DNA from: Candidatus Woesearchaeota archaeon
GTDB taxonomy: Archaea; Nanobdellota; Nanobdellia; Woesearchaeales; SM23-78
Reading direction: 5' to 3'
DNA: 62,542 nucleotides
Assembly: GCA_019322375.1 (NCBI GenBank)
Contig: JAHWIP010000035.1
Span: 1-62,542, forward strand
Both the position numbers and the translations under genes were made by a program. Below the pieces are notes generated by a model. The model was given only the letters and a program-made list of their open reading frames with translations, ran no database searches and had not been told where the DNA came from. Position 1 is the first letter of the stretch. Each line of letters opens with the position of its first letter. This document shows, piece by piece, positions 1 through 29,303 of this stretch.

Positions 1-1955
1 ATCAAAGCATGATGTGCAACCTAACCCTTGATGGCTCCCTGCTAATCAACAACACACCTGTAAACAATAATTCAGAATACTCAACAACAGCCACCAACCT
101 CTCAGAAGGAACACACTACTGGAATGTTACTTGCTGGGATGAAGCTAATAACATCAACACAAGTGAAACAAGAAGCTTTAATGTGTATATAGCGCCTGTT
201 GTGGTTCTTGTAAATCCACCAAATGGCAATGTAACTAATAACCAGAGTCAGATTTTTTACTTTAATGTGAGTGATGAGACAGGCATATTTAACTGCTCAC
301 TCATCCTTAACAATGCAGTCAATGATACCAAGAATAACTCTGAGATAACCAATAATGCAACCAATAATTTCACAATCACCTTAGGAGAAGGTTTTTACAA
401 TTGGAGTGTGAGATGCTATGATAATACCAGCTTAAAGATAGAAGGTAATTCTGAGACTTGGAATATAACCATAGACCTTACTGCTCCTTATCCAAGCATA
501 ACAACAGCTAATTATTCTTGGTTTAACACTACCACTCCTGCCATTAATTTCATAATAACAGATAATTTTGCAGACCCAATTAATTATACCTTCTATATTA
601 ATAACAGTGCAAATGCTAGTGGAGCAGTTAATAATAACACTCCAAGCAGTGATAACTTACAAGACCTAGGCAGTAATGCAAGTTTCAGAGTGGTGCTACA
701 AGGAACAGACGAAGCAGGTAACTCAAGAAACAGTTCAAGCATAATCATATATGTTGATACTGTAAAGCCAAACATTAACTTATCAGCACCAAGTCCTGGA
801 GAGCAGTTTAACATAAGTACAGTGCAATTCAATTTCACAGCCACAGACAAAATGGCACCATACATGATGTGCAACCTTTCTATCAGCAATGGAATGTATG
901 AGTATAACATTAATGCAACCAACGGCGCTTTACAGAACATTACTAAAGGCGGCTTTGAATCAGGAGCTTATTATTGGAATGTGACCTGTGTTGACCGTGC
1001 AGGTAACAGAAACACTAGTGTAACATGGAACTTCACAATAATGGCTCCTGACCTTGTGATAACCAGCGGAAACATATCATTCAATGATACTTCTCCTGAA
1101 GAAGGAACAAACATAACCATGTATGCAAATGTGTACAACCTGGGAGGAGGAGTTGCTTATAATGTAACTGTACAGTTCTGGAAAGGAGATCCAGATAGCG
1201 GAGGCACACAGATTAATGGTAATAAAACCATAAGTGCGCTTAGTAATGGAGCCAACTTCACTCTTAATATCACCTATAACACAAGCATAGGGAATAATAA
1301 TATCTTTGTGGTGGTTGATCCGCCCTTAGCTACTAATGGAAGCATTGACGAGGAGAATGAGAGCAACAATAAGGATAACAACTCTTTCCTTGTGAGCCTG
1401 TACCATGTGTACGCAGGCAACACCACAGCAGTTATTGACATGGAAAAGCAGAGCATAAACATCTCTATGTATCAATGGAATGTTAGCAATGCAAGCGGAA
1501 GCAACCTGTTTGTAACCGATATAGAAGCCAGCCCTGACTTTAATAATCTGCAGGCGATTAGCAGGGATACAAGCAACAATTCTGTGGGTGATGATTTTGA
1601 GGAAATAGACACAGCCATCAGCTCAACCAATTATTCCGACTCTGTTAATAATACTTACACCATTAATGGAAACCCAATAGCAACCAGAACCTTTGTATCA
1701 TTTTCCAAAGTAATAAACAATGTCCCAATAATCAACAGCACCAACACCAGCAACTTCCAGACAGGCATAATTTGGGATAAGAGTGATGGAAATAATGAAT
1801 ACAATGGAACCCAAGACCTGCTGTTTATAACAGAGATTAACAAGCAAAAACAGGGCAGCCAAGGCATATATGACTTTGAGATAAAAGTACCTGCGTTGCT
1901 CAGAAACTATAATGCTGCTGGAACAAGCGTGGCATTTTATGCTGAGATAAAATGA
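1..1955 (+). CDS. C-terminal part of a giant secreted surface adhesin, 5'-truncated by the window edge: Ig-like repeats, CARDB-like domain, family-A C-terminal module
   Basis: The frame is open to position 3, and the first Met lies inside a repeated '..YMMCNLS..' module. CARDB-like stretch 'PDLVITSGNISF...VVVDPPLATNGSIDEENESNN'. The last ~185 aa align with the small family-A proteins and end 'YDFEIKVPA...VAFYAEIK'. N-x-S/T sequons are very dense. Confidence 0.85.
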   Translation, partial: QSMMCNLTLDGSLLINNTPVNNNSEYSTTATNLSEGTHYWNVTCWDEANNINTSETRSFNVYIAPVVVLVNPPNGNVTNNQSQIFYFNVSDETGIFNCSLILNNAVNDTKNNSEITNNATNNFTITLGEGFYNWSVRCYDNTSLKIEGNSETWNITIDLTAPYPSITTANYSWFNTTTPAINFIITDNFADPINYTFYINNSANASGAVNNNTPSSDNLQDLGSNASFRVVLQGTDEAGNSRNSSSIIIYVDTVKPNINLSAPSPGEQFNISTVQFNFTATDKMAPYMMCNLSISNGMYEYNINATNGALQNITKGGFESGAYYWNVTCVDRAGNRNTSVTWNFTIMAPDLVITSGNISFNDTSPEEGTNITMYANVYNLGGGVAYNVTVQFWKGDPDSGGTQINGNKTISALSNGANFTLNITYNTSIGNNNIFVVVDPPLATNGSIDEENESNNKDNNSFLVSLYHVYAGNTTAVIDMEKQSINISMYQWNVSNASGSNLFVTDIEASPDFNNLQAISRDTSNNSVGDDFEEIDTAISSTNYSDSVNNTYTINGNPIATRTFVSFSKVINNVPIINSTNTSNFQTGIIWDKSDGNNEYNGTQDLLFITEINKQKQGSQGIYDFEIKVPALLRNYNAAGTSVAFYAEIK

Positions 1956-2126: not shown

Positions 2127-3191
2127 ATGAAAAAAGGCTTGGGTAAAAAAACTGATGAAAAAAAACCAGAATCCTTCTTTACTGCTAGTGGCAAGGAGAT
2201 AAGAAGTTTAAAAGAACTAAAAGATTATCTAAAAAAAATAGATGAAACAGAATTTTCTCACCACATCACAGAAGAGAAGAATGATTTTGAGAATTGGATA
2301 AGGCACTCTTTAAAGAATCATAAACTCGCAGATTTTCTTAGAAAAAAGAAAACCAAAGAGGACACTATACAAATAATTGATTATTTCTTGATTAAAAAAG
2401 AGCTTGAAAATCCTGAATCAGAACTAAGAAAGGAAAAAAAAGAAGAAATTCCTTCTATAGAAACTATTAAGGTAGGAGTGCCAGGGTTTGATGAGTTAAT
2501 AACCAATGGCATTCCTAAAGGGAGCTCTATTCTTTTAAGCGGAGGTCCTGGAACTGGCAAAACAACCTTCTGCCTTCAAGTTGTAAAACAGGCTGCTGAA
2601 AATAAAGAAAAATGTCTTTACCTGACCTTTGAAGAAGGGGTGGTGGAATTAAAGCAGCATATGAAGAATTATGGATGGGACCCTGTCAAAGTTGAGAAAG
2701 AAGGTAATCTACTAATAAAGAAAATGAAGCCTTTTGAGCTAAGCAGGTCTGTTGAAGCCCTTCTTGCTAAGGCTAGTGGTGAGTTAACAATAGAGCTTAA
2801 TGAAGTAGAAGGAATCATCCCAAAAGGTTTTAAGCCTGATAGGATAATCTTAGACTCCTTATCTGCTGTTGCTGCTGCTTTCACAGACAAAGAAGAAGGC
2901 TATAGGATTTATATTGAACAATTATTCTCTCTGTTTAAAAGGATAGGAGCAACCTCTTTCCTCATAACAGAAATTGAGCAGGAAGCCCGTAAATATAGTA
3001 GGAGTGGTGTTGAAGAGTTCTTAGCAGATGCAGTATTTGTATTTTATAACATACGTAGGAAGAATGTGAGACAAAATGCTCTGGAAATCCTGAAAATAAG
3101 AGGAACCAAGCACCAGAAAAAAATAGTTCCTTTCAAGATAATCTCGAACCAAGGGATAATTGTTTACCCACAAGAAGAAGTATTTACCTGA
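2127..3191 (+). CDS. KaiC/RadA-like (RecA-superfamily) ATPase with an extra ~55-aa N-terminal module
   Basis: 'GVPGFDELITNGIPKGSSILLSGGPGTGKTTF' contains the Walker A. 'RIILDSLS' is Walker B-like. The layout is typical of single-domain KaiC-like proteins. The N-terminal module 'FFTASGKEIRSLKELKDYLKKIDETEFSHHITEEKNDFENWI' recurs at the C-terminus of ORF 23956-24957. Confidence 0.85.
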   Translation: MKKGLGKKTDEKKPESFFTASGKEIRSLKELKDYLKKIDETEFSHHITEEKNDFENWIRHSLKNHKLADFLRKKKTKEDTIQIIDYFLIKKELENPESELRKEKKEEIPSIETIKVGVPGFDELITNGIPKGSSILLSGGPGTGKTTFCLQVVKQAAENKEKCLYLTFEEGVVELKQHMKNYGWDPVKVEKEGNLLIKKMKPFELSRSVEALLAKASGELTIELNEVEGIIPKGFKPDRIILDSLSAVAAAFTDKEEGYRIYIEQLFSLFKRIGATSFLITEIEQEARKYSRSGVEEFLADAVFVFYNIRRKNVRQNALEILKIRGTKHQKKIVPFKIISNQGIIVYPQEEVFT

Positions 3192-3202
3192 TATCATACC
3201 AA

Positions 3203-6200
3203 ATGTCAAAGAATGTTAAAGAAAAAATTTTTAATAGAAAAACAGGCTATAACATCCTAATCATTCTACTTATAGGAACTATAGGAGCACTTCTTATCAT
3301 GCCCTTAATCTATGTCTATGCACTGACAGGAAATTATTCAACAACATCTCCTTTTAGCTGCGGTTCAAACTGTAACAATGGTTATGAGCTTTCGGGTCAT
3401 AATGCCACCTATTGCTATAATAATCCTGTTGATTGTTACAACACAATCGATGAGTGCAGAGATGGAACAAATGATGGATTTGAATTCGTCAACAACATTT
3501 ATGTTCAAAGCCTGAACGGGACCAATTTTACAGGAAACCATACAATAAACGTAACTGTGGAGTTTGATTGTGACAGTGACGGTGACACGATTACTATTTC
3601 TTATCATAACGGAACAAGCTTCAGAGTAATACAAGATGACACCTGCTCTGTTTCTGCTCTTGTAAACAAGACTTATAGTTTTGTACTGGATGAGACTGAG
3701 GGTAACCACACTGTAAGGGCAGCAATTGTGTATATGGGCGGAACCCAGATGATTTGCGGGTATAGCTACGACACAACTTTCTCAGACACAGATGACGTTA
3801 CTTTCTTTGTATATCAAGGACCAGACACTGAAAACCCACAAGTGTTGGGGGTTAGCCCGGTCTCAGGAACAGCATACAATCAGAGCTATGGCTTAGCCAT
3901 AACAATATCTGCGAATGTTACTGATAATGAAAATGTTAGCAATGTGCAAGCCTTGGTTGAATGGGAGTCTTATAACTATACTTTGAATCTTAGTTTTGAC
4001 AGTGGGACCCTTTACTCGGGTAACTTTACAAACATTACTGAGCTAACCCGTTATAATGTGACAATCCTAGCTAATGATACATCTAATAATATGAACAACA
4101 CAGAAATCACGTATTTCACAATAAACTCTACAACCAATATCACGATTACAGCCCCAAGCAACAAGCAAGTTCTCCCTTATGAAGATACAAATTTGAGATT
4201 TACAATAGATTATGGTTATAATACAGATACAGCGATGTACTCTTTTGATGGTGGAGCAAATATAACTGTTAATGATAAATTGAGTGTGGCCTTCACACAG
4301 TCAGATCAAAATGGCACAATAGGAGAACCAGATAATGTGTATGACAATCTTTCCATGTCCTTTAAGCCAAATGAAAACATGAGCATAGAAATCGTTTCTC
4401 TTAATCTTAAAAGAAATGGTTCAGGAACCAATGACTCCAAAGTTCAGATAAGAACAAATAATGGAGGAAAACCTTCTAACACAATCCTTGCTTCTGGTAA
4501 TGTAACAAACACTTCTGTTTCTATAAATTACACTTCTATTAACATAACCCTTAACACCACGATTAACCTTACTGTGAACACAACTTACTGGTTATTCCTA
4601 ACACCAAACGGCTCAACAACAGATTTTTATACCTGGGAAGCAAGCAATGATGGCTTGTACTCAGACGGCAACTACAGCAACAACAACAGCCTTGATCTTT
4701 TATTTGTTGTTTATGACCAGTATAAATACAACACGATCATTACAAATGTTTCAAAGGGGGTGCACCGACTAATAGTTTATGCCAACAGCACAAGCATGAG
4801 TTCAATAAAATCACAATTAATCCAGTTTGAAGTTGATAATAAGTCCCCAAGCATAGGAACAATCACATATTCTCCAAACACCCCTGCTAACGTAGATCCA
4901 AATGTATTGATAAATGTAAGTGTAAATGTTTCTGATGAAGTTGAAATTTCACAGGTTCTGCTTCAGTACAAGCAAAGCAATGGGAGTAGCTTTACAAATA
5001 CAAGTATGCAAAACATATCAGGGCTTTACAATGGGAATTTCACACCAGACTCTGAGAACAACTGGACTTTTAGAATTTATGCAAGGGACAGCTCAAATAA
5101 CACAGCTTACTCAGACAACACTACCATAAATGTTTCCTATGAGTACTTATGGAACAGCACCCTCTCTAACTTTAATACTACCTCAGCATTTCTTGACACT
5201 AACACAAGTGTTGGTAACATAACTATTAATAATACAGCAGATATTAATCTCACTATTAATATATCTAAAACAAGTTCCACTGTGCCAAGCATATACTTCA
5301 ATAATACAGAAGGAAGCTTAGTGTTTAATGTTAGCCCTGGAAGTACAACTATTATTGAAGTAATAGCCACAGGACAGAGTATTGAATCAGAACAAACAGT
5401 CGGAATAAGGATTGATCCAAGTCAATCAAATGCAAACCCAGATTACTTGTCTACTAATTTCACTTTAATATCATATGTTTCAGGGCCTTACTTGGATGTT
5501 GACATCTCAGAGTATGACTCTACAGTTACCCAGGGCCAGACAAGAGTGACATTAACAGCAGCCATAATTAATGTAGGTAATGAAACTGCTAATAATGTGA
5601 GTGCTTACTGGACTCTTCCAAGCAGATGGACTCCTAAGACAAATATTACTAGTAACTATACCACTCTGAGTGTTGGACAACAAGTAAGCTTTACAAGATA
5701 TGTTGATATTGACTCTGATGCAGCCACTGGCACTCAGACCATAAGAATTGATGTGAATTGTTCAGAAGGAAAAGATGATTATGAGCAGAGAAGCATAAGT
5801 GTTAATAGCAGTGGCGAGGGAGGAGAAGAAACCCCCAGGTCTGGTAGTGGAGGAGGGGGAGGCATAATTCCTTCTAAAACAACCAGGCTAGAGATTAGTA
5901 CTTCAGAGGAAGTAGAGATTGAAAGAGGAGCAAACCAGACCATTACAGGAATTCTGAGTAATACTGGCGATACAGATTTAGAAAACTTAAGTATGCTTCT
6001 TGAAGGATTTCCATTAGTACATTATAAAATAGAACCTGACTTCTTGAGTAAGTTAAGAGCAAATACCAGCAAATCCTTTTCCTTATTCATAAACATTCCT
6101 GAATACTTTGGAAGTGGCAAACATAATGCTGTCCTTGTTATAAAAGCCTTGGCTGAGAGTGCGTGGAAGGAGTTCAGCAGAGATATAACAATTATTGTTA

Positions 6201-7093
6201 TTACTGATGACAAAACTCAGGCTTCTGAGTGCTTTGAAAAAGCTGGATTAAAGATAGATGAATTAGTAAGCACGAGAATGGGTACCACAAAATTAAGCCA
6301 AAGACTAGATGAGGCTAAAAGGAATTATAATAGCAAGAATTATGGAGATGCAAATAATCTTTGCAAAGAAATATTAAAAGAAGCAGAGCTTGCTATGAAT
6401 GTAAAAGAACAAATAGATTCTATTAATAATGCCTACTCTGGCTTAGGAAGAGAGATTCCTGAATTCAGTGAGTTGATAAAACTTACGCAAGAGGCTTTTG
6501 AGCGTGAGGATTATGGATTAGCAAGCAGAAGGATAGAGCAAGCAGGGCTTTTGCTTAGCATGAAAGAGAAAGAAGTACAGCAGACCCTAGCCTACAAGTG
6601 GGGGCTGATAAGAAAGTATTGGAAGGAAATAATCATGGTATTAGTACTTATAATCATAATAGGAATACTTACTTATACATCTACAAGTCTTAGCTTTGTA
6701 TCAAAGAGATTTAGAGCATTGAAAGAGCATGAAGATGTTGTGAGAAAAAAGATAAAACAAGTGCAAAGAAAATATTTTGTTGAAAAATTGGTGCCGTCAA
6801 GGCTTTATGAAAAGGAGATGGAGCTCCATAGAAGTGCACTAGCGAATATTGAGAGCCAGAAAACTAATCTAAAGCTTAAAAAATTAAGGTTGGAAAGAAG
6901 GAATACTCTTGAAGAGCTGGAAAAAGCAGAACAAGAAGCCGAGGCAGGCAAAAAAGAGCTTCAGACAAGATACTTTGTTGAGAAATCAATTGACAAGAAG
7001 ACTTTTAAGAGGCTAACATTAGGCTTTGACAGAATATTACAGGATATTAAGAGAAGAATTGCATTAAAGAAAAGAAAAAGAGGTGAAAAGTGA
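3203..7093 (+). CDS. 1296-aa membrane-anchored surface glycoprotein (N-terminal signal/anchor, beta-sandwich ectodomains, C-terminal TM, coiled-coil cytoplasmic tail)
   Basis: N-terminal hydrophobic segment 'ILIILLIGTIGALLIMPLIYVYA'. Sequon-rich Ig/CARDB-like ectodomain. TM 'IIMVLVLIIIIGILTYT' near the C-terminus, followed by a K/E-rich tail with two 'R(K/Y)YFVEK' motifs. Confidence 0.8.
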   Translation: MSKNVKEKIFNRKTGYNILIILLIGTIGALLIMPLIYVYALTGNYSTTSPFSCGSNCNNGYELSGHNATYCYNNPVDCYNTIDECRDGTNDGFEFVNNIYVQSLNGTNFTGNHTINVTVEFDCDSDGDTITISYHNGTSFRVIQDDTCSVSALVNKTYSFVLDETEGNHTVRAAIVYMGGTQMICGYSYDTTFSDTDDVTFFVYQGPDTENPQVLGVSPVSGTAYNQSYGLAITISANVTDNENVSNVQALVEWESYNYTLNLSFDSGTLYSGNFTNITELTRYNVTILANDTSNNMNNTEITYFTINSTTNITITAPSNKQVLPYEDTNLRFTIDYGYNTDTAMYSFDGGANITVNDKLSVAFTQSDQNGTIGEPDNVYDNLSMSFKPNENMSIEIVSLNLKRNGSGTNDSKVQIRTNNGGKPSNTILASGNVTNTSVSINYTSINITLNTTINLTVNTTYWLFLTPNGSTTDFYTWEASNDGLYSDGNYSNNNSLDLLFVVYDQYKYNTIITNVSKGVHRLIVYANSTSMSSIKSQLIQFEVDNKSPSIGTITYSPNTPANVDPNVLINVSVNVSDEVEISQVLLQYKQSNGSSFTNTSMQNISGLYNGNFTPDSENNWTFRIYARDSSNNTAYSDNTTINVSYEYLWNSTLSNFNTTSAFLDTNTSVGNITINNTADINLTINISKTSSTVPSIYFNNTEGSLVFNVSPGSTTIIEVIATGQSIESEQTVGIRIDPSQSNANPDYLSTNFTLISYVSGPYLDVDISEYDSTVTQGQTRVTLTAAIINVGNETANNVSAYWTLPSRWTPKTNITSNYTTLSVGQQVSFTRYVDIDSDAATGTQTIRIDVNCSEGKDDYEQRSISVNSSGEGGEETPRSGSGGGGGIIPSKTTRLEISTSEEVEIERGANQTITGILSNTGDTDLENLSMLLEGFPLVHYKIEPDFLSKLRANTSKSFSLFINIPEYFGSGKHNAVLVIKALAESAWKEFSRDITIIVITDDKTQASECFEKAGLKIDELVSTRMGTTKLSQRLDEAKRNYNSKNYGDANNLCKEILKEAELAMNVKEQIDSINNAYSGLGREIPEFSELIKLTQEAFEREDYGLASRRIEQAGLLLSMKEKEVQQTLAYKWGLIRKYWKEIIMVLVLIIIIGILTYTSTSLSFVSKRFRALKEHEDVVRKKIKQVQRKYFVEKLVPSRLYEKEMELHRSALANIESQKTNLKLKKLRLERRNTLEELEKAEQEAEAGKKELQTRYFVEKSIDKKTFKRLTLGFDRILQDIKRRIALKKRKRGEK

Positions 7094-8439
7094 AAATAAG
7101 AACCTCAACTAAAATCTTTGTAATCCTAATATTCCTCAGCTTAGCCTTAAACCTTTCTTTAGCAAAGGAAGAGCAAGAACTAAGATCAGAGCTTCTCAAA
7201 TTAAATAATGTAAAAGAAGAGATGACAAATTCTGATACGGATGTAAGCAGGGTTGATGATTTGATTACAGAGGGTTTTTTGTATTTTAATAACAAGGATT
7301 ATAACAAAACCAAAGAAGTAATATCATCTATTTATAAGCTGAGAAATGATGCTCTTAATGCCCAAAGTGAGCTTTCTGTTGTTAACCAGCTATACCTTGA
7401 TGTTAAGGAAAGAAATATTACTCTAGTTAACGCTACCAGCATAAAGATTGAATGGGACTTGGATTATGCTAAGAGAGAGTTTGATAAAGAGAATTATGAA
7501 GGTGCTTTGAAAAGATTAGCAAAGATAAAGAAAGCACTTCTCTACAGTATTAATAATGAGTATAACTATCTTAATGCTTCTCTCTTAGCACTTGAAGAAA
7601 AAATAAATTCATTAAAACTAAGCAAATCTAGGATAACAACATTAAAGAGCTTGCTGTCAGAGGCTTTAGGAACTGGAGGGCTCAGGGAGCTTGAAATTAT
7701 TAAACAAGAAGCTGGAGTTTTGAATAAAAGCCTTGTGTATTACAAAGAAATAAAGCTTGCCATCCCTATTCTGAAGGGCAAAAACCTTTCTGCTCAGAGA
7801 ATAAATGATGGGCTTAATGCTGCTAAGCTTGACCTGGACTTTGCTGATTATGAGTCTGCTTTTAACAAGCTTGAAAGCCTTAAAGCCCTTACTGAGAAGG
7901 GTATTTTCTTAGAAGATGAAATTAGTGAACTTGAGAAGAATCTTGCAGATGAAAAAGCCAAGCAGAGAATTGACATAACAGAAGCAGAATCCTTTCTTAA
8001 AGAAGCACAATATGAGCTTACTGTTGGCAATTATGAGACTGCTGAGCAAAAGCTGTTAAATGCAAGGGATAGCTATGAGAGTTTAAAAGCAGAACTATTA
8101 ATTAAAAAAGCAGGCCTAAAGAGCTTTGGATTTAGTCTAAAAGAATTCATTAAGAGAAACTGGCCATATGTATTATTAATAATTTTTATAATCCTGGTTG
8201 TGCTTAAGTTCACATCTCATATTTGGGTACTTGGTATTCAAAGAAAAAGGCTTGCAAGACTGAAGAAAGAGCTCAATATTAATGAAAATATGGTGCAAGA
8301 ACTTCAGAGAAATTACTTTGTTCATAAGAAAATGTCAAGGGAAAACTATGATAAATCTTATGAATCTTTGCAAGAAAAAACTGTAAATTTAAAAGAAAAA
8401 ATATCCCTATTTAATAAAAAGGTTAAAAAAGGCGAATAA
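7090..8439 (+). CDS. Secreted coiled-coil/helical-repeat protein with C-terminal TM and short cytoplasmic tail
   Basis: GTG start overlaps the upstream stop (GTGA). Signal peptide 'KIFVILIFLSLALNLSLA'. Repeated helical motif '(D/N)Y..A...L'. TM 'WPYVLLIIFIILVVL'. The tail carries 'RNYFVHK', paralogous to the tail of 3203-7093. Confidence 0.7.
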   Translation: MKIRTSTKIFVILIFLSLALNLSLAKEEQELRSELLKLNNVKEEMTNSDTDVSRVDDLITEGFLYFNNKDYNKTKEVISSIYKLRNDALNAQSELSVVNQLYLDVKERNITLVNATSIKIEWDLDYAKREFDKENYEGALKRLAKIKKALLYSINNEYNYLNASLLALEEKINSLKLSKSRITTLKSLLSEALGTGGLRELEIIKQEAGVLNKSLVYYKEIKLAIPILKGKNLSAQRINDGLNAAKLDLDFADYESAFNKLESLKALTEKGIFLEDEISELEKNLADEKAKQRIDITEAESFLKEAQYELTVGNYETAEQKLLNARDSYESLKAELLIKKAGLKSFGFSLKEFIKRNWPYVLLIIFIILVVLKFTSHIWVLGIQRKRLARLKKELNINENMVQELQRNYFVHKKMSRENYDKSYESLQEKTVNLKEKISLFNKKVKKGE

Positions 8440-8476
8440 GCTTTAATTGAATATAAACTCAAAAAAATGGAAAAAA

Positions 8477-9004
8477 ATGAATTTAGTAGATGAAATAAAA
8501 AACAGGCAAATCGTGCTAATGGTTTTTCCAAAAGCACAGTATATGAATAAATTAATTGAGATTATTAGAGCAGTTGATACGGTTTCTAATAAGATTTGTT
8601 ATGTTAGCTTGAACAAGCCTTACAACAGTATAATAGATAATCTTAAAGCAAATAACATAAGTATTGAGAAGTACTTTTTTATTGATGTATTAACCAGCAC
8701 TGTAAAGACTCCTGAACCTGTTGATAATTGCGAGTTCGTACAGTCACCAAGTGCATTAACAGATATAAGCCTAGCATTTACAAAAGCAATGCAGGAGAAG
8801 GGATGTGATAATGCCTTATTTGACGCAATCTCAACCCTCATGATATACCAAGATACTGGTGAGATTATCAAGTTTACCCAGAACATGATGACCAAGACAA
8901 GAGTTGCTAATGTGAAGTCAGTATATATAGCCTTAAAAGAAGACAGTGAAGAGCTTGTGAAGGATTTGACTATGTTTGTGGATGGAGTTGTTGAGCTAAG
9001 TTAA
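8477..9004 (+). CDS. KaiC/RecA-like fold protein lacking a P-loop (degenerate ATPase-like signalling module), paralog of 14958-15506
   Basis: Aligns over its full length with 14958-15506 ('ICYVSLNKPY..', 'F(F/I)FIDV', 'FD(A/T)ISTL(M/L)(I/V)YQ', 'VY(I/V)(A/V)LKE'). It has a Walker-B-like strand but no GxxxxGK(S/T). I chose the ATG at 8477 over the TTG at 8447 because it matches the paralog's N-terminus. Confidence 0.65.
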   Translation: MNLVDEIKNRQIVLMVFPKAQYMNKLIEIIRAVDTVSNKICYVSLNKPYNSIIDNLKANNISIEKYFFIDVLTSTVKTPEPVDNCEFVQSPSALTDISLAFTKAMQEKGCDNALFDAISTLMIYQDTGEIIKFTQNMMTKTRVANVKSVYIALKEDSEELVKDLTMFVDGVVELS

Positions 9005-9092: not shown

Positions 9093-11591
9093 ATGATAGA
9101 AGACATTCTCAAAAAAGAGGATAAACTCTCACCTGGGCGTGTTCTAGGAGATAGGTATAAGATAATTGAGGAGATTGGCCGAGGAGGAATGGCACATGTT
9201 TATTCTGCTCATGATAAAAAACTCAAGAGAGTGGTTGCACTAAAAGTTCTTGATAAGAAATTTTACATGGATGAAGAGTATGTTAAAAGATTCAAAAGAG
9301 AGGCTGAGTCCATAGCCAGACTAGACCATCCAAATATTGCTGATGTGTATGACATTGATGAGCTTGATAATAGACTTTATATATCAATGAAATATATTGA
9401 GGGAAAGAGTCTTGATAAAATCATAGAGAAACACAAGGGCTTCTTTGACAAAGAAACAGTATGCAAGGTTGGACAGAAACTTCTTGATGCACTAGCATAT
9501 GCACACATTCAAGGAATTATTCATCGTGATATAAAACCTAGTAATGTGATGATTACAGGAGATGTTGGCCTTACAGGGAAGTGGGACCTTAAAATCCTGG
9601 ATTTTGGTATTGCAAAAATAGTAGATGATGAAACAATTCATACCCAACTAACACAGTACGACACAAGACTGGGCACACCTGAATATATGTCTCCTGAACA
9701 GATTGATGGTGAGGAAACAACTGGAAAAGAGGACGTATGGTCAACATCTGTTGTTCTTTATGAAATGCTTACAAACGGTAGACTGCCATTTGGAATTGTA
9801 AGGGAGATGAAGTATACAAAAAAGACAAAACAAATAGCAGTAGGACAATTAAAAGGACCTAGAAGTATAAACAGCCAGATACCTAAGAATTTAGAAGATA
9901 TAATTTTAAAAGGGCTTGAGAGAGAGATAGATAAAAGATATGATGCAAAGGAAATGCTTGAGGATATAAACAAATCCCTTAATCAAGAAAAATTTGTTGT
10001 TAATGGAAGTAAAGAAAGAAGGGCTGAAGTGTATGGGAAAAAAAGGGGTCTAAAACTAGCAATAGGTGTAGGAATATTATCTGTTCTTCTTGCAACAGGA
10101 GGATGGTTTTGGATAAACAGATATAAAGATATTGGCTCACTAATGCCTGTGGTTAAAGAAATGGAAAAAGCCGAGATTAACAATATGGAGGAGATTGTTC
10201 CTTATTTAAAGAATTACTATCCAAGACTTAGTAAAAGATTAGAGTGGTTTTTTAATAAAGATTTCAGTAAAAGAATAGAGAAGGAAAGACTAAGGATAGA
10301 AAAAGAAAAGCAAGAACCAGGAAAAAAATCTCCAGAGATCTATCCAGTAGGTACTTATACAGCTGATGGATACTTGGGAAAATTTATTTACCTTACAGGA
10401 GAGAGCACTACTGCAGGAGAGATAGTTCCTTTTCTTTACTATCTATATGATGATACCACGAGAAGAGCAAAGAATGAAAAAGATGCTGGAAAAAGATCAA
10501 AATTTGAAAGAAAGGGAAAAGAGATTTTGGATGACATCATGTTTTGCGCTTCTAATCTTTATTTTGCAGAGTACAGTGATACAGCAAGTGGTAGTTCAAT
10601 TAGTGATAGGACTGCACTAGCCGTACACCGATTCCATCCTCCTTGTGCTGAGTTTGTTCAAAGCCTGAAAAAGGACCACCCGCTTATTTATAACGAAAGG
10701 AAAGATGAGATTAAACAAATAGTTGATAATCATGCTAAAGCAATAAAAATGGCTGTTGAATATACACTTAGAAACACCATACAAAAGATAAAAACCTTTC
10801 GTGTGGACGATGTAAGAAATAATCCCAGTACTTGGAATGATAGCGAGTTTGCACTTTTGTTATGTGATGGATTCAGATTGCATGATGTCCAGAGTCAGGT
10901 GCTTTCATCATACGATTACTTAGGAAACAAGACAAGTAACATGTATGAGTTTCTTGAGCTAATAATAAATGAAGCCAAGATAAAGTTTGATAAACTTGCA
11001 ATGCAAGAATCATGGAGGCAAATAGCGTCTAATAATGAGTACTTCGGATTTATGAAAGGTCATGTTCATAGAAAAAAACTTATTCAAGACCTGAAAACAG
11101 GAGAAGAAACCAAGTTTGGGAATAATGAAATATTCCAAAGAAATCTAGAAAACTTATTTAACTCAAGTAACATGTCGAGGTCGGAATTTCTTAATTATCT
11201 ATCAAAGATTGAAAAGAGACTTAATCAAGAAATTCAGATGCTGGGTGAGTTTGGAATACGTCAAGCATTTGATTCACCAAAACCATCTTATTTTCTAATA
11301 GAAAGGAATGGTAATCCTCTGAGTATTTATCATCTTGGATATTTATTAGGATTAAATGCTGTCTATGACAAACCTGATTACAGAGGAATCAGAAAGGATG
11401 ATGTTGATTCATATATTTTTAAAACTATTCTTACTAGAAATCACGTAGTAAAGAATTTAGGCAGGTTCCGTGGCTTTTTCAAGAATACAATTCCTTGGAT
11501 AGATCATGAAGGTTCTATAGGAGGAACCAACATAGCTTTTGGCAGGAGCATTTACAAGCGTATTAGAGGAATTGCTTATGAAGGTTACTGA
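9093..11591 (+). CDS. Hanks-type Ser/Thr protein kinase with one TM and a ~470-aa C-terminal domain of unknown function
   Basis: 'GRGGMAHVY', 'VALKVL', 'HRDIKPSNVM', 'DFGIAK' and 'GTPEYMSPEQ'. TM 'LAIGVGILSVLLATGGWFWI'. I do not recognise the remainder. Confidence 0.85.
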   Translation: MIEDILKKEDKLSPGRVLGDRYKIIEEIGRGGMAHVYSAHDKKLKRVVALKVLDKKFYMDEEYVKRFKREAESIARLDHPNIADVYDIDELDNRLYISMKYIEGKSLDKIIEKHKGFFDKETVCKVGQKLLDALAYAHIQGIIHRDIKPSNVMITGDVGLTGKWDLKILDFGIAKIVDDETIHTQLTQYDTRLGTPEYMSPEQIDGEETTGKEDVWSTSVVLYEMLTNGRLPFGIVREMKYTKKTKQIAVGQLKGPRSINSQIPKNLEDIILKGLEREIDKRYDAKEMLEDINKSLNQEKFVVNGSKERRAEVYGKKRGLKLAIGVGILSVLLATGGWFWINRYKDIGSLMPVVKEMEKAEINNMEEIVPYLKNYYPRLSKRLEWFFNKDFSKRIEKERLRIEKEKQEPGKKSPEIYPVGTYTADGYLGKFIYLTGESTTAGEIVPFLYYLYDDTTRRAKNEKDAGKRSKFERKGKEILDDIMFCASNLYFAEYSDTASGSSISDRTALAVHRFHPPCAEFVQSLKKDHPLIYNERKDEIKQIVDNHAKAIKMAVEYTLRNTIQKIKTFRVDDVRNNPSTWNDSEFALLLCDGFRLHDVQSQVLSSYDYLGNKTSNMYEFLELIINEAKIKFDKLAMQESWRQIASNNEYFGFMKGHVHRKKLIQDLKTGEETKFGNNEIFQRNLENLFNSSNMSRSEFLNYLSKIEKRLNQEIQMLGEFGIRQAFDSPKPSYFLIERNGNPLSIYHLGYLLGLNAVYDKPDYRGIRKDDVDSYIFKTILTRNHVVKNLGRFRGFFKNTIPWIDHEGSIGGTNIAFGRSIYKRIRGIAYEGY

Positions 11592-14957: not shown

Positions 14958-15506
14958 ATGGAGTTATTATCTCAGATGAGTGATAATAAGTTTGTTCTTG
15001 TACTTCTTCAAAGCAAAAACTATGCAGATGTTTTGTACAAGGTTATTGGAAAAGTAAATAAAAATAAATTCAATATATGCTATGTCTGCCTCTCAAAACC
15101 CTACGCCGATGTAATTGAAGAACTTAAAAATGAGAAAATAAATTATGAGCACTTTATATTCATAGATGTTGTTAGCAGCCTCCATTATAAGTTAAAACCA
15201 ATAAAAAACTGCATATTTATTCCAGGTCCTGACAACCTCGAGGATCTAATGAAAGCTGTAAAAAAAGCTATAAATAAATATAGATGTGAAGCAGTGATAT
15301 TTGATACAATTTCAACCCTATTAGTATATCAGCAGACTCACTCAATCGTCAAATTTACTCATGAGCTGATAATGGACAAAAATCAAGAAACAGTTAACAA
15401 GATTTATGTAGTCCTTAAAGAAAAAGGTCTTTATAAGGATGAAAGTAGAAAATTAGTAAATGACCTTAACCTATTTGCAGATAAGATAATTGATATAAAG
15501 GATTGA
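14958..15506 (+). CDS. KaiC/RecA-like fold protein lacking a P-loop, paralog of 8477-9004
   Basis: Collinear similarity to 8477-9004. No Walker A. Sits directly upstream of a receiver-domain gene. Confidence 0.65.
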   Translation: MELLSQMSDNKFVLVLLQSKNYADVLYKVIGKVNKNKFNICYVCLSKPYADVIEELKNEKINYEHFIFIDVVSSLHYKLKPIKNCIFIPGPDNLEDLMKAVKKAINKYRCEAVIFDTISTLLVYQQTHSIVKFTHELIMDKNQETVNKIYVVLKEKGLYKDESRKLVNDLNLFADKIIDIKD

Positions 15507-15555
15507 AAAGAAGGTAAAAAAGAATAAAGTCATTAAATATGAAAATAATGTGAAA

Positions 15556-15930
15556 ATGGCAAGAACAATAATGATTGTGGATGATGAACCGCACATGATA
15601 GAACTTGAAAAAGCCATCCTAGAAGCAGAGGGTTTTAAGACAATAAGTGCTTTTAATGGTGAGCAAGCATTAAAACTTCTTGAGAAGATCAAGCCAGACC
15701 TTGTAGTCTTGGACATGATGATGCCTGATATGTCTGGACGAGAGGTGTGTGAAAATATAAGAAAGAACCCTAAAACCAAGAATCTAAAAGTAATATTTGT
15801 AACAGTAGCCAGGTTCTCAGAAGTAGGAAAGGATAAGCTCAAAAATATGAATGTACTTGATTATATAACTAAACCTTTTAATAATGACGAACTTGTCTTT
15901 AGGATAAATAAAGTATTAAGAGTAAAGTAA
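15556..15930 (+). CDS. Stand-alone response-regulator receiver (CheY-like)
   Basis: 'IMIVDDEPHM', 'DLVVLDMMMPDMSG', 'KVIFVT' and 'DYITKPF'. The ATG at 15556 is preferred over the GTG at 15550. Confidence 0.85.
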   Translation: MARTIMIVDDEPHMIELEKAILEAEGFKTISAFNGEQALKLLEKIKPDLVVLDMMMPDMSGREVCENIRKNPKTKNLKVIFVTVARFSEVGKDKLKNMNVLDYITKPFNNDELVFRINKVLRVK

Positions 15931-15934
15931 GAAA

Positions 15935-23885: not shown

Positions 23886-23955
23886 GCCAGAAAACATAAA
23901 TTTTAAATACTAATAAGAACCAAGAAAAAATAGGAGACAGAAAAAGGAAAAAGAG

Positions 23956-24957
23956 GTGGGTGATATTATAAGGAAGAAAAAGAGCAAAGTAAAGGATTTC
24001 TTTAAACATAGCAAAAAAATGGTGCAAGCACCAAAAGAATTACCAGAGATAGGAGTAAAGACATCACAAACTCATCTTGTGCCTCCAAAACAACAAGAGA
24101 TGACACAAACACCTCAAAAAAGTATAGAACCAGAACCCCCATCCCCCCAAGAAAAACCCAAAAAAGAACTTAAGCTGCCACAGATAGAACCTTCTGCATT
24201 ACAAGAAAAAAGCCAAGCAGCTTTGCCAAAAGATGTGAGCATTCATGAGGATGACCTAAAACAATTTGAAGAAGCAATTAATAACATAAACATAGACATG
24301 GTACACACAGATGCACCAGCTCTGCACAGTCCTAGCACTGAAAAGGAAGCAGATTATTACAAACCTTCAGAAATGGGCGAAGGCTATTTCTCAGAAATAG
24401 AGCACTACGTAAAAAACAAGAATGTAAAAGAAATAATAGATGATATACTCAAAAAGGATTTTTTAACCAGCATGAAAGACTATCATGATACAAAAGCCCA
24501 GGGAAAACCTTTTTACCTGCACGAACATGACCTAAAACACAAACTCAAGAAAAAGATGAATCATCTTAGAAAGCTAGAAGAAGAATGGCATAACCTAAAG
24601 ATGCAAATAGAGGACAAAGAAAGAAAAAAGAAAGAAGCAGAAAAAGGAATAGACCATGAAAGCCAGGAACTAAAAGAACTGTTCAGGCAGGTAAAGATAA
24701 ATCATTTGCTTGAGCAACAAGCACCAAAAGAACATTATTTCAAGCTTAAAAACGGGCAAGAGCTTAAGAGTCTTAATGACCTGAGAAAAGCCCTGGAATA
24801 TATATCAGACGATGAGTTCAACCACCACATGAATCCAGAGAAAAACGACTTTGCATCCTGGGTCAAAGAAGCCCTTCAGAACCAGGAGTTATACGAAAAA
24901 ATAAAAGATGCAAAGAATAAGGAAGAGCTGCAAGAAGCACTACAGAATCCTTTTTAG
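23956..24957 (+). CDS. Cytoplasmic P/Q/E-rich and coiled-coil protein ending in the same ~55-aa module that heads the KaiC-like ATPase
   Basis: C-terminus 'YFKLKNGQELKSLNDLRKALEYISDDEFNHHMNPEKNDFASWV' aligns with residues ~17-60 of ORF 2127-3191. No signal peptide. The start (GTG 23956 or ATG 24019) is uncertain. Confidence 0.65.
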   Translation: MGDIIRKKKSKVKDFFKHSKKMVQAPKELPEIGVKTSQTHLVPPKQQEMTQTPQKSIEPEPPSPQEKPKKELKLPQIEPSALQEKSQAALPKDVSIHEDDLKQFEEAINNINIDMVHTDAPALHSPSTEKEADYYKPSEMGEGYFSEIEHYVKNKNVKEIIDDILKKDFLTSMKDYHDTKAQGKPFYLHEHDLKHKLKKKMNHLRKLEEEWHNLKMQIEDKERKKKEAEKGIDHESQELKELFRQVKINHLLEQQAPKEHYFKLKNGQELKSLNDLRKALEYISDDEFNHHMNPEKNDFASWVKEALQNQELYEKIKDAKNKEELQEALQNPF

Positions 24958-24992
24958 AAATATAAATAATCTAAGATAAAAAAGAAGTTTCT

Positions 24993-25754: not shown

Positions 25755-25795
25755 TGCATCACCTCGTTGCAAGCATCATAAAAATATAAATAAAA

Positions 25796-25815: not shown

Positions 25816-25827
25816 CTTTTTCTCTGT

Positions 25828-29289: not shown

Positions 29290-29303
29290 TTTACCTCTTC
29301 ACC

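What the first reader, a model, noticed from the sequence alone, without database searches (positions are those of the whole stretch)
2127..3191. Conserved synteny: each family-A-tailed giant is followed by a gene carrying the same ~55-aa module, once fused to a KaiC-like ATPase
'FFTASGKEIRSLKELKDYLKKIDETEFSHHITEEKNDFENWIRHSL' (nt ~2172-2337) heads the KaiC-like ATPase downstream of giant 1. 'YFKLKNGQELKSLNDLRKALEYISDDEFNHHMNPEKNDFASWVKEAL' (nt 24733-24903) ends the cytoplasmic coiled-coil protein downstream of giant 2. Both proteins lack signal peptides. From memory the motif pattern (F...G....SL.(E/D)L...L..I....F.HH....NDF..W) resembles the DUF5752-type module, but I cannot verify this. A cytoplasmic ATPase and scaffold repeatedly linked to secreted giants hints at a dedicated regulatory or export-associated partner.
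Basis: partly seen in the sequence, partly recalled or inferred. Interest (0 to 1): 0.65.

Follow-up and report, generated by a model that had tools for sequence, protein, structure and literature searches.

The report
OrfY-type module on two cytoplasmic proteins
Two cytoplasmic proteins of an uncultured marine-sediment archaeon share an ~80-residue domain of unknown function (Pfam DUF5752, the fold of Thermoproteus OrfY). The domain is very common in tiny symbiotic archaea and bacteria, mostly next to glycogen genes, but here and in relatives it has been recruited to the inner side of two gene clusters for giant surface proteins.

Summary
ORF 2127..3191 is an N-terminal ~80-aa module fused to a single-domain KaiC-type ATPase. 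ORF 23956..24957 ends in the same module (38% identity, E 4e-13). Neither protein has a hydrophobic segment.

It is not specific to giants. An exhaustive search finds about 4,800 protein clusters, and 42 of 75 genome loci place it in alpha-glucan (glycogen) gene clusters. Seventeen of 75 loci link it to giant surface-protein clusters.

The KaiC fusion belongs to a conserved operon with the downstream membrane giant 3203..7093, not with the upstream family-A giant. In one relative the module sits on that giant's cytoplasmic tail and KaiC lacks it.

Protein 2 does follow family-A giants consistently: 8 of 9 informative metagenome loci, plus more distant MAGs.

The biochemical role is inferred. 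I favour a regulatory or pairing input domain acting at the cytoplasmic face. Interest is moderate.

The parts
2127..3191 (+). Gene for a 354-aa cytoplasmic protein: N-terminal OrfY-type module, ~20-aa charged linker, single-domain KaiC-type ATPase
   Evidence: ORF. Pfam PF06745 at 177.5 bits and DUF5752 at 19.6 bits. No hydrophobic segment. Orthologues at 66-76% identity in L002-L005.
2160..2402 (+). Module copy 1 (aa 12-92): beta-hairpin plus five helices, one repeat of the OrfY/DUF5752 fold
   Evidence: HMM envelope. AF2 model with pLDDT 91.8. Foldseek best and only meaningful hit is 4cso_D, TMq 0.60, prob 0.85. The conserved residues F6, G11, L20, F32, H35, K40, N41, D42, F43 and W46 are all kept.
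2466..3179 (+). KaiC/RecA-superfamily ATPase domain (aa 114-351). Walker A GGPGTGKT at nt 2541-2564, TFEE at nt 2625-2636, Walker B IILDS at nt 2844-2858.
   Evidence: Pfam. PDB hits to KaiC at E 4.8e-59 and to the single-domain PH0186 at E 4.5e-37. Motif positions.
3203..7093 (+). 1296-aa bitopic surface giant: N-terminal hydrophobic segment, ~1100-aa outer part with a NEW3 domain, TM at aa 1135-1153, ~140-aa cytoplasmic tail (nt 6662-7090) with two [KR]YFVEK repeats. It starts 11 nt after the KaiC gene.
   Evidence: The L063 homologue (36-43% identity) carries the module at its cytoplasmic C-terminus.
7090..8439 (+). 449-aa bitopic membrane protein whose cytoplasmic tail shares the YFV-K motif with the giant. 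It overlaps the giant's stop codon by 4 nt.
   Evidence: Conserved after the giant in L002-L005 and L063.
8447..9004 (+). 185-aa KaiC-like protein without a Walker A motif (DUF7504-like), a probable non-catalytic partner
   Evidence: Pfam DUF7504 at 25.7 bits and KaiC at 18 bits. Sequence read directly. Conserved at 74-81% in L002, L003 and L005 and at 51% in L063.
9093..11591 (+). 832-aa Hanks-type Ser/Thr protein kinase with one hydrophobic segment; follows the operon in L002, L003 and L005
23956..24957 (+). Gene for the 333-aa cytoplasmic protein 2: N-terminal PKELP motif (aa 26-30), low-complexity stretch, conserved helical region, C-terminal module
   Evidence: Orthologues P0044 (82%), P0054 (69%), L066 (40%), L011 (33%) and L031 (29%).
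24361..24720 (+). Conserved helical region of protein 2 (aa 136-255): three short helices and one 64-residue helix; defines a family of about 28 representative clusters
   Evidence: AF2 model with pLDDT 85.8. Family defined by phmmer/hmmsearch.
24724..24954 (+). Module copy 2 (aa 257-333)
   Evidence: HMM score 96.7 bits. In the AF2 model it superposes on 4cso_A/B/D at 2.1-3.1 A over ~80 columns, prob 0.82-0.90.
9..1955 (+). C-terminal 648 aa of family-A giant 1 (cut by the window start); no C-terminal TM segment
   Evidence: 76% identical to the L003 giant that also precedes a module-KaiC gene.
18564..23885 (+). Family-A giant 2 (1773 aa): hydrophobic segments only at the N-terminus, CARDB/Big_13/fn3 domains, family-A tail
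24993..31092 (-). Block of secreted small paralogues of the family-A tail (259, 291, 251, 242 and 251 aa), a 322-aa protein and an ArsR-type HTH protein. It is convergent with protein 2 and conserved with it in other genomes.
31798..33591 (+). 597-aa bitopic protein with a short cytoplasmic zinc-ribbon tail; a conserved member of the family-A cluster
   Evidence: The weak ArlF/G similarity is far below cut-off.
38136..40943 (-). 935-aa bitopic giant (TM at aa 798-816). Its homologue in L018 (29% identity over 690 aa) carries the module on its cytoplasmic tail.
14958..18169 (.). Second Walker-A-less KaiC-like gene (14958..15506 +), a response-regulator receiver (15550..15927 +) and a dCache-HAMP histidine kinase (15935..18169 -). 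The trio recurs beside the KaiC/giant operon in L004 and L063.

Best explanation
The shared segment is a single ~80-aa repeat of the OrfY/DUF5752 fold. This is a cytoplasmic accessory domain that is abundant in DPANN archaea and CPR bacteria. Its commonest home is alpha-glucan (glycogen) gene clusters, but it has been recruited several times to the cytoplasmic components of giant surface-protein systems. In this window it marks the cytoplasmic member of two different conserved clusters.

(1) Gene 2127..3191 fuses the module to an intact single-domain KaiC-type ATPase. It is the first gene of the operon KaiC / bitopic NEW3 giant (3203..7093) / 449-aa bitopic protein with the same tail motif / Walker-A-less KaiC-like protein, followed by a Ser/Thr kinase. 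In a relative the module sits on the giant's cytoplasmic tail and KaiC lacks it. I therefore infer that KaiC, the module and the tails form one complex at the inner face of the membrane. I read this as a KaiC-centred signalling unit, not an export machine.

(2) Gene 23956..24957 puts the module at the end of a protein with a long helix. It is a fixed member of the family-A cluster: giant, protein 2, small secreted paralogues, two HTH proteins and a bitopic zinc-ribbon protein.

Mechanism (inferred, about 0.35). The module is a regulatory input domain of the CBS/ACT kind. It often works in pairs and has an invariant His-x4-Lys-Asn-Asp-Phe-x2-Trp patch. That patch would bind a common cytoplasmic ligand, most plausibly a sugar-derived metabolite given the glycogen and trehalose contexts, or a second module. 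Binding would then modulate the attached ATPase, enzyme or scaffold.

What is shown: identity, topology, operon membership and synteny (about 0.9). What is inferred: the ligand and the output. The overall confidence of 0.55 blends these two levels.
For: Identity:
- DUF5752 hits in both proteins at 19.6 and 16.2 bits.
- 71 of 81 homologues match PF19027, and two-module homologues pass its threshold.
- The module profile hits both repeats of OrfY/4CSO, E 6.7e-8.
- AF2 models have pLDDT 91.8 and 85.8, and 4CSO is the only credible structural match.

Abundance and context:
- 4,804 clusters at E<=1e-3.
- Of 75 loci, 42 are glycogen-type, with GT4/5, GH57, glycogen synthase, GDE, GH15, PfkB or FBA as neighbours. 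The module is also fused to GH57 and to transketolase.
- 17 of 75 loci are surface-giant clusters. ORFs of >=950 aa make up 4.5% of genes within two genes of a module gene and 0.95% of genes farther away (odds ratio 5, p 2.7e-4).

Operon:
- Gaps of 11, -4 and 7 nt separate the operon genes, against 171 nt after the upstream giant.
- The order KaiC, giant, 449-aa, small KaiC is kept in L002-L005.
- In L063 KaiC lacks the module and the giant's tail carries it after its TM segment.
- L018, L017 and L034 also carry modules on the cytoplasmic tails of giants.
- The ATPase motifs are intact.

Protein 2 synteny.

Pairing: 31 of 75 loci have tandem or adjacent modules, and OrfY has two repeats.

Invariant polar patch: H35 90%, K40 87%, N41 95%, D42 94%, W46 98%.
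Against: - No biochemical datum exists for any member. No paper mentions DUF5752 or 4CSO, and the literature search for OrfY with trehalose found nothing on it.
- The conserved residues could be purely structural (helix N-cap and core). I could not inspect model coordinates.
- 39 of 75 loci show only a single module, so pairing is not universal.
- The 80 genome loci were retrieved with one peptide pattern and ranked by similarity to the window's modules. The class fractions are therefore a biased sample, and the loci are not phylogenetically independent.
- The L063 argument rests on one genome. In L034 the giant is cut by the contig end.
- No transcript data exist for the operon boundaries; only DNA runs from marine sediment were found.
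Confidence: 0.55

Rival explanations
1. One reading: the module is the hallmark of dedicated regulatory or export-associated partners of secreted family-A giants. On this view both window proteins serve the giant encoded upstream of them.
For: Both family-A giants in the window are followed by a module gene. Protein 2 follows a family-A giant in 8 of 9 informative metagenome loci and in L066, L074, L011 and L095. L002 and L003 also have a family-A giant before module-KaiC.
Against: Most module genes lie in glycogen clusters with no giant nearby. L004 keeps module-KaiC and the downstream operon without a family-A giant. L063 and L034 keep KaiC with the NEW3 giant. Family-A giants have no cytoplasmic portion. 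KaiC-type ATPases are not secretion ATPases, and there is no T2SSE, VirB11 or SecA-type signature in the gene. The window's two modules are not each other's nearest relatives.
Confidence: 0.15
2. The module is only a homo- or hetero-dimerisation (docking) unit. The two window proteins pair through it, joining the KaiC operon to the family-A cluster, with no ligand involved.
For: OrfY holds two repeats in one chain. 31 of 75 loci have tandem or adjacent module genes, typically one gene with a C-terminal module next to one with an N-terminal module. The window has exactly two single-copy module proteins.
Against: 39 of 75 loci have a single module within about 10 kb. The two window genes are 21 kb apart in separately conserved clusters, and each occurs without the other in other contigs (L004, L005 and L083-L093). 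Only 62 kb of the genome is visible, so other copies may exist.
Confidence: 0.15
3. The module is a DNA-binding domain, as suggested by the depositors' label 'transcription factor' for OrfY. The window proteins would then be a DNA-associated KaiC/RadA-like ATPase and a transcription regulator of the family-A cluster.
For: The PDB molecule name of 4CSO is 'ORFY PROTEIN, TRANSCRIPTION FACTOR'. Small stand-alone module genes sit inside metabolic operons, as local regulators often do. The module is fused to KaiC/RecA-type and HerA/FtsK-type ATPases, families that include DNA-handling enzymes.
Against: Modules are on average acidic to neutral: mean net charge -1.4, median pI 6.1, and only 26% have pI above 8. 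They are fused to GH57, to transketolase and to the tails of membrane giants. No HTH, wHTH or RHH fold match was found; the only other Foldseek hits are insignificant (E>4). The family-A cluster already has two HTH proteins.
Confidence: 0.1
4. The similarity is chance or compositional (Lys/Glu-rich helical segments), and the synteny is a single local duplication.
For: Both proteins are rich in charged residues. The two giants are paralogues.
Against: Pairwise E is 4e-13. Profile scores exceed 90 bits. Thousands of homologues share an invariant motif. The models are confident and agree with 4CSO. The modules lie at different distances from the giants' stop codons, in unrelated proteins. Each module clusters with orthologues in other genomes.
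Confidence: 0.01

Closest known systems
OrfY of Thermoproteus tenax (PDB 4CSO) / Pfam PF19027 DUF5752
   Same: Same sequence family and fold. The module profile matches both repeats of OrfY (E 6.7e-8). Both AF2 models superpose on 4CSO (prob 0.82-0.90; 2.1-3.1 A over ~80 columns for module 2). The NDF-x2-W motif is shared. From my own memory, not checked here: orfY lies with the trehalose synthase gene treT. That would fit the alpha-glucan context seen in 42 of 75 loci.
   Different: OrfY and the Pfam model hold two repeats in a 208-216-aa stand-alone protein. The window proteins hold one repeat each, fused to a KaiC ATPase or to a long-helix protein, and score below the Pfam threshold. The function of OrfY is itself untested as far as I could find.
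Archaeal single-domain KaiC-like ATPases (PH0186/2ZTS, PH0284/2DR3, SSO2452/2W0M). From my own knowledge of Makarova, Galperin and Koonin 2017 (mBio 8:e01959-17, not readable here), these were proposed as signal-transduction hubs.
   Same: Single RecA-like domain with Walker A, a TFEE pair and Walker B. It is encoded beside a Ser/Thr kinase, a histidine kinase, a receiver domain and degenerate KaiC-like proteins.
   Different: It falls below the cut-offs of every named NCBIfam KaiC subfamily (KaiC_arch_3: 124.6 against 249 bits). It carries an OrfY-type N-terminal module. It is coupled to two bitopic surface proteins with a shared cytoplasmic tail motif. I have not seen that arrangement described.
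ArlH (FlaH), the KaiC-like ATPase of the archaellum
   Same: KaiC-like single-domain ATPase acting at the cytoplasmic face of a surface structure. There is weak similarity (50 bits). Some module proteins elsewhere carry FlaC_arch, and the 597-aa protein has a faint ArlF/G-like stretch.
   Different: 50 bits against a 215-bit cut-off. No ArlB, ArlI or ArlJ genes are in the window. It is not a member.
CBS / ACT-type small regulatory modules (functional analogy only)
   Same: Small cytoplasmic domain, often in tandem pairs. It is fused to unrelated enzymes, ATPases and membrane-protein tails, or encoded alone inside operons. A 4xCBS protein follows the giant and the 454-aa gene in the L063 operon.
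   Different: No sequence or fold relationship. Ligand binding by the module has not been shown.

Membership tests
Pfam PF19027 DUF5752 (OrfY-like) | Score at or above the Pfam gathering threshold (23 bits) | tested here: not met
   19.6 bits (aa 19-72) and 16.2 bits (aa 288-320), matching only profile positions ~14-84 of 208. The model spans two repeats. Two-repeat homologues reach 33-48 bits. The shortfall reflects half-length coverage, not lack of homology.
Pfam PF19027 DUF5752 (OrfY-like) | Profile-level homology to the founding protein OrfY (4CSO) | tested here: met
   A 93-sequence module profile that includes both window copies hits 4CSO at E 6.7e-8, with both repeats aligned on the NDF-x2-W motif. 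71 of 81 homologues match PF19027 at E<=1e-3.
Pfam PF19027 DUF5752 (OrfY-like) | Same three-dimensional fold as OrfY | tested here: met
   Module 1 model (pLDDT 91.8): 4cso_D with TMq 0.60, prob 0.85, and no other hit with E<4. Module 2 within the protein 2 model: 4cso_A/B/D with prob 0.82-0.90 and rmsd 2.1-3.1 A over 78-80 columns. Foldseek E-values are weak (0.3-1), as expected for an 80-aa domain.
Pfam PF19027 DUF5752 (OrfY-like) | Two tandem repeats in one stand-alone ~210-aa chain | tested here: not met
   Each window protein has one repeat. A relaxed HMM search finds no cryptic second copy.
KaiC / RecA-superfamily ATPase (PF06745) | Pfam match above threshold, plus Walker A, a catalytic Glu pair and Walker B | tested here: met
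   177.5 bits against 26.6. KaiC structures at E 4.8e-59. GGPGTGKT at aa 139-146, TFEE at aa 167-170, IILDS at aa 240-244.
Circadian KaiC proper | Two tandem KaiC domains (~500 aa) with kaiB/kaiA partners | tested here: not met
   There is a single domain. NF006799 scores 146.8 against a 408-bit cut-off, and TIGR02655 scores 109.6 against 546. No KaiB or KaiA was found among the neighbours scanned.
ArlH (archaellum KaiC-like ATPase) | NCBIfam equivalog score, plus archaellum genes nearby | tested here: not met
   NF052589 scores 50 bits against a 215-bit cut-off. No archaellin, ArlI or ArlJ is in the window.
   Only KaiC/RecA-type matches are significant; VirB11 is at E 5e-4 and 19 bits against 250. 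No translocon genes are adjacent.
Known anti-phage defence systems (PADLOC) | Specific match of operon proteins to a defence-system model set | tested here: not met
   There are only generic P-loop hits for KaiC (mad8, 27 bits) and generic kinase-domain hits for the Ser/Thr kinase (PD-T4-6). The giant, the 449-aa protein, the small KaiC-like protein and protein 2 have no hits.

The most novel reading that the evidence does not exclude
The OrfY-type module is a cytoplasmic sensor of carbon-storage or sugar status. In genome-reduced episymbionts (DPANN, CPR) it is wired both to glycogen enzymes and, through KaiC- and HerA-type ATPases and the cytoplasmic tails of bitopic giants, to the attachment surface. 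The cell's energy state would then control, from the inside, the giant adhesin-like proteins it uses to hold on to hosts. The KaiC / NEW3-giant / 449-aa / pseudo-KaiC / kinase operon would be a previously undescribed transmembrane signalling machine.
Probability: 0.12. Interest if true: 0.8.

Novelty: new variant of a known kind. Interest (0 to 1): 0.45.

Why it matters
DUF5752/OrfY is a catalogued but functionally blank domain. This analysis shows three things about it. It is one of the commoner accessory domains of DPANN archaea and CPR bacteria. Its main genomic home is glycogen metabolism. It has also been moved repeatedly onto the cytoplasmic side of giant surface-protein systems, including onto their tails and onto KaiC/HerA ATPases.

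Giant surface proteins of these episymbionts are thought to mediate host attachment, yet almost nothing is known about how they are controlled from inside the cell. The operon at 2127..9004 gives a compact, testable candidate: one small ATPase, two tails with a shared motif, one pseudo-ATPase and one kinase. The module also offers a single 80-aa target for ligand screening, which could assign a function to thousands of proteins.

If the module turns out to be a plain structural adaptor, the finding reduces to an annotation improvement.

Tried and rejected
- The word-indexed protein search was nearly blind to this short domain. It returned 1, 1 and 2 hits for the two modules and for a 93-sequence profile. 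The exhaustive representative search was needed.
The genome scan therefore used one narrow pattern from A1, which biases the sample.
- Literature searches found nothing on DUF5752 or 4CSO and nothing on OrfY itself; the only 4CSO text hit was an unrelated 1923 paper. The Makarova 2017 KaiC paper is not held.
The PDB profile search for them found nothing, so the nature of the family-A domain remains open.
- NCBIfam gave no name for protein 2, the giant or the 449-aa protein.
- PADLOC gave only generic kinase and P-loop hits, so a defence-system reading was dropped.
- There are no tRNA or Rfam features in the window.
- No RNA runs contain the locus, so the operon boundaries could not be tested.
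- B-type small module proteins were checked for a cryptic second repeat; none was found in 35 proteins.
- An 80-aa neighbour-joining tree is poorly resolved. I used it only to show that the two window copies are not sister sequences.
Full report
**1. What is at the coordinates**

ORF 2127..3191 (+) encodes 354 aa.

- Residues 114-351 are a KaiC/RecA-type ATPase domain. Pfam PF06745 scores 177.5 bits (E 3.7e-52), and the best PDB sequence match is KaiC at E 4.8e-59. Single-domain archaeal relatives PH0186, PH0284 and SSO2452 also match.
- The catalytic motifs are intact: Walker A GGPGTGKT (aa 139-146), TFEE (aa 167-170) and Walker B IILDS (aa 240-244).

ORF 23956..24957 (+) encodes 333 aa and ends in the same module at aa 257-333.

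- The two copies align at 38% identity over 63 residues, E 4e-13.
- No third copy exists in any frame of the window.
- Neither protein has a hydrophobic segment, so both are cytoplasmic.
The quoted strings are at nt 2175-2312 and 24736-24876.

**2. What the module is**

- Both proteins hit PF19027 just under its threshold (19.6 and 16.2 against 23 bits), and only over the first ~80 of 208 model positions.
- An exhaustive HMMER search of 1.84 billion representatives with a four-sequence profile found 4,804 clusters at E<=1e-3 and 3,159 at E<=1e-10. Many have two or three tandem copies.
- Of 81 longer representatives, 71 match PF19027. Two-copy proteins pass the threshold, and one aligns across model positions 16-189. 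The Pfam model is therefore a tandem of two modules.
- A 93-sequence module profile hits one solved structure, OrfY of Thermoproteus tenax (4CSO, 216 aa), at E 6.7e-8 with both of its repeats aligned.
- AlphaFold2 models are confident. Module 1 has pLDDT 91.8 and folds as a beta-hairpin followed by five helices. Protein 2 aa 136-333 has pLDDT 85.8.
- In both models 4CSO is the only credible Foldseek match (prob 0.82-0.90; 2.1-3.1 A over ~80 columns for module 2).
- The most conserved positions across 124 copies are F6, G11, L20, F32, H35, K40, N41, D42, F43 and W46, at 85-98%.
- I found no paper that mentions DUF5752 or 4CSO, and none on OrfY itself. The depositors' label 'transcription factor' is untested as far as I can tell.

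**3. Where the module occurs**

A scan of one genome per GTDB species used the pattern [EQ]KNDF[EA][NS]W. It found 180 relatives, of which 80 loci were fetched.

- Most records are labelled Woesearchaeota, Nanoarchaeota/Nanoarchaeia, Pacearchaeota or Aenigmatarchaeota.
- Others are co-assembly MAGs labelled 'Methanosarcinales', and some are CPR bacteria.

I called genes in these loci and labelled neighbours by BLAST against Pfam-checked references. Of 75 loci with module genes:

- 42 are alpha-glucan clusters. The typical order is a GT4/GT5 glycosyltransferase, GH57, one or two small module genes, then glycogen synthase, GDE, GH15, PfkB or FBA. In some, the module is fused to the C-terminus of GH57 (Aenigmatarchaeota) or of the transketolase C-subunit.
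- 17 are clusters of giant surface proteins.
- 16 are something else.

ORFs of 950 aa or more make up 4.5% of genes within two genes of a module gene, against 0.95% farther away in the same loci (odds ratio 5.0, Fisher p 2.7e-4). The loci are not phylogenetically independent, and the sample is ranked by similarity to the window's modules.

So the module is ubiquitous and mostly unrelated to surface genes. It nevertheless has a real secondary association with giants, in at least three architectures:
- on KaiC next to a NEW3 giant;
- on the cytoplasmic half of giants of ~1,300 aa that combine CarboxypepD_reg domains with a HerA-type ATPase, together with the small genes next to them;
- on the protein 2 family next to family-A giants.

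**4. The KaiC gene belongs with the downstream giant**

The spacing of the genes points this way.

- The KaiC gene is separated from the upstream family-A giant by 171 AT-rich nucleotides.
- It is packed against the next three genes, with gaps of 11, -4 and 7 nt.

The three downstream genes are:

- a 1,296-aa bitopic protein with an N-terminal hydrophobic segment, a NEW3 domain, a TM segment at aa 1135-1153 and a 140-aa cytoplasmic tail;
- a 449-aa bitopic protein;
- a 185-aa KaiC-like protein without a Walker A motif.

The order module-KaiC, giant, 449-aa, small KaiC (and usually a Ser/Thr kinase) is kept in L002, L003 and L005 at 47-81% identity. It is also kept in the more distant L004 (35-66% for the first three genes), where the small KaiC-like gene lies two genes further on (31-38%) and no family-A giant lies upstream.

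The two membrane proteins share a juxtamembrane tail motif...Q[KR]KYFV.K...Y.K..E.... It occurs twice in the giant and once in the 449-aa protein.

The most telling locus is L063.

- Its giant is homologous (36-43% identity over ~980 aa) and is followed by the 454-aa homologue.
- Its KaiC (61% identity) has no module.
- The giant's cytoplasmic tail is extended and ends in the module at aa 1547-1622, after the TM segment at aa 1262-1280.

A domain that moves between two adjacent gene products is the classic domain-fusion signature of proteins that work as one complex. Other bitopic giants also carry modules after their TM segment: L018, L017 and L034 by the hydropathy scan, and L051 and L057 by homology and module position. 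L018 is a homologue of window gene 38136..40943.

A second Walker-A-less KaiC-like gene, a receiver domain and a dCache-HAMP histidine kinase (14958..18169) recur beside the operon in L004 and L063.

From my own knowledge of Makarova et al. 2017, which I could not read here, this fits the view of archaeal KaiC-like ATPases as signalling hubs. The gene is not ArlH, not a circadian KaiC, not a secretion ATPase and not a recognised defence gene.

**5. Protein 2 really is a fixed companion of family-A giants**

Protein 2 has four parts:
- a short N-terminal motif, PKELP (aa 26-30), that is nearly invariant in its family;
- a low-complexity stretch;
- a conserved helical region with one 64-residue helix;
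- the module.

About 28 of the top-scoring representative clusters share this N-terminal region, usually followed by two modules.

I scanned metagenome contigs with the N-terminal region alone, so the search was independent of the module. It returned 15 loci.

- All 15 proteins end in the module.
- A family-A-tailed giant lies immediately upstream in 8 of the 9 loci that include upstream sequence; L092 is the exception.
- Small family-A paralogues lie downstream in 13 of 15 loci.
- In L083 and L093 the whole 15-kb arrangement of window 18564..33591 is reproduced: giant, protein 2, five small paralogues, the 322-aa protein, two further genes at the positions of the window's two HTH genes, and the 597-aa bitopic protein. 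L091 shows the same arrangement from protein 2 up to the second of those genes; it begins at protein 2 and ends before the 597-aa gene.
- Distant versions at 29-40% identity occur in L066, L095, L096, L011 and L031. L074 has the same gene order (family-A giant, 312-aa protein with a C-terminal module, small paralogue, 597-aa homologue), but its protein shares only the module with protein 2 (22% overall).

Family-A giants have hydrophobic segments only at the N-terminus. A cytoplasmic protein therefore cannot touch the mature giant. Any link must run through regulation, assembly, or the cluster's only proteins with cytoplasmic parts, namely the zinc-ribbon tail of the 597-aa protein and the HTH proteins. 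This last step is inference.

**6. Relationship of the two copies**

In a neighbour-joining tree of 124 modules:

- the KaiC-fused copies (W, L002, L003, L004) group together;
- the protein 2 copy groups with L026 and with the L066 orthologue;
- surface-linked modules are scattered among glycogen-linked ones.

The two window copies are thus separate members of a large family. They are not a recent local duplication, and the recruitment to surface systems looks repeated.

**7. How it most likely works**

Shown:
- the family and fold;
- the cytoplasmic location;
- the operon and cluster membership;
- the movement of the module between KaiC and the giant's tail.

Inferred: the module supplies a function that the membrane-proximal complex needs, whichever subunit carries it.

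Its behaviour is that of a regulatory input domain of the CBS/ACT kind.
- It is fused promiscuously to enzymes, ATPases and tails.
- It is encoded alone inside operons.
- It frequently comes in pairs; 31 of 75 loci have tandem or adjacent copies, and OrfY has two repeats.
- It keeps a polar His/Lys-Asn-Asp/Trp patch that stays invariant although the fusion partners differ.

Given the glycogen context (and, from memory, the treT context of OrfY), I favour a sugar-derived metabolite or a second module as the common binding partner. The output would be modulation of the KaiC ATPase at the tails of the two bitopic proteins. I put this mechanistic step at about 0.35. The identity and system-membership statements I put at about 0.9.

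The last is weakened by the acidic-to-neutral charge of the modules and by the fusions to enzymes. Chance similarity is excluded.

**8. Origin and novelty**

The window has 36% G+C. It carries housekeeping genes (seryl-tRNA synthetase, an XPD-type helicase), so it is chromosomal. It is found in a marine-sediment metagenome. Its closest relatives are MAGs labelled Nanoarchaeia and 'Euryarchaeota SM23-78'. The organism is probably a DPANN-type archaeon, but its taxonomy is not settled.

The module is a known but uncharacterised Pfam family, and KaiC-like ATPases are known. What I have not seen described is threefold:
- the single-repeat fusions;
- the KaiC / bitopic-giant / shared-tail operon with a migrating module;
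- the fixed place of the protein 2 family in family-A clusters.

I rate this a new variant of a known kind, of moderate interest.

Noticed in passing
window 18564..33591; also L083, L091, L093, L066, L074, L011, L095: A conserved ~15-kb 'family-A' cluster. It holds a giant with a family-A tail, protein 2, five secreted ~250-aa paralogues of the tail (mature N-terminus A-x-P-x-G, two conserved Cys, C-terminus DFQLIVPEN...TTYYFYAEL), a 322-aa protein, two HTH proteins and a 597-aa bitopic zinc-ribbon protein. Neither Pfam nor the PDB gives a match for the family-A domain.
   Followed up: partly
window 42696..50933 (aa ~2483-2742), 26748..27716, 37111..38049: The third giant ends in a different tail. 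That tail is homologous to two stand-alone ~320-aa proteins in the window and to L018 and L011 proteins. This is a second 'giant plus small paralogues of its tail' family.
   Followed up: no
window 6662..7090 and 8206..8436; L002-L005, L063: The cytoplasmic tails of the 1296-aa giant and the 449-aa protein share a conserved motif, Q[KR]KYFV.K...Y.K..E. It occurs twice in the giant (aa 1190 and 1256) and once in the 449-aa protein. It is a candidate docking site for the KaiC complex.
   Followed up: partly
window 24031..24045 (protein 2 aa 26-30) and the homologues in alignment A8: A nearly invariant short N-terminal motif, P(K/D)ELP, precedes the disordered region in the protein 2 family. It looks like a short linear interaction motif.
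   Followed up: no
L046, L044, L021, L024, L009 (transketolase); L049, L054, L067, L080, L053 (GH57); L008, L060, L078 and others: In DPANN and CPR glycogen clusters the module is fused to the C-terminus of GH57 and of the transketolase C-subunit. Elsewhere it is encoded as a pair of adjacent small genes, one with a C-terminal and one with an N-terminal module, between GH57 and glycogen synthase, GDE or GH15.
   Followed up: partly
L034 5927..9754; L017, L051, L057, L069, L076: Bitopic proteins of ~1,300 aa combine outer CarboxypepD_reg domains, a mid-chain TM segment, a cytoplasmic HerA/DUF87-type ATPase and one or two modules. They are preceded by a PKD giant of ~1,050-1,100 aa (in L017, L034, L051 and L057) and followed by small module genes and a ~365-aa protein. 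In L034 this cluster lies 5 kb from a KaiC/NEW3-giant pair.
   Followed up: partly
window 14958..18169; L004, L063: A Walker-A-less KaiC-like gene, a stand-alone receiver domain and a dCache-HAMP-HisKA histidine kinase form a trio. The trio recurs next to the KaiC/giant operon in distant relatives.
   Followed up: partly
window 9093..11591: The kinase domain of the 832-aa Ser/Thr kinase scores up to 279 bits on PADLOC PD-T4-6 models. This looks like generic Hanks-kinase similarity, not evidence of a defence role.
   Followed up: no
window 31798..33591 (aa 429-521): There is faint similarity to the archaellum stator proteins ArlG and ArlF (E 3e-4 and 9e-4, about 20 bits against a 110-bit cut-off). 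Three module proteins elsewhere carry FlaC_arch. This may be a distant link to archaellum accessory proteins, or it may be noise.
   Followed up: no
window 59321..61231: A 636-aa protein combines a PIN domain, a T2SSE-like P-loop ATPase and KH domains. It sits next to the seryl-tRNA synthetase and TrmB-family regulators.
   Followed up: no
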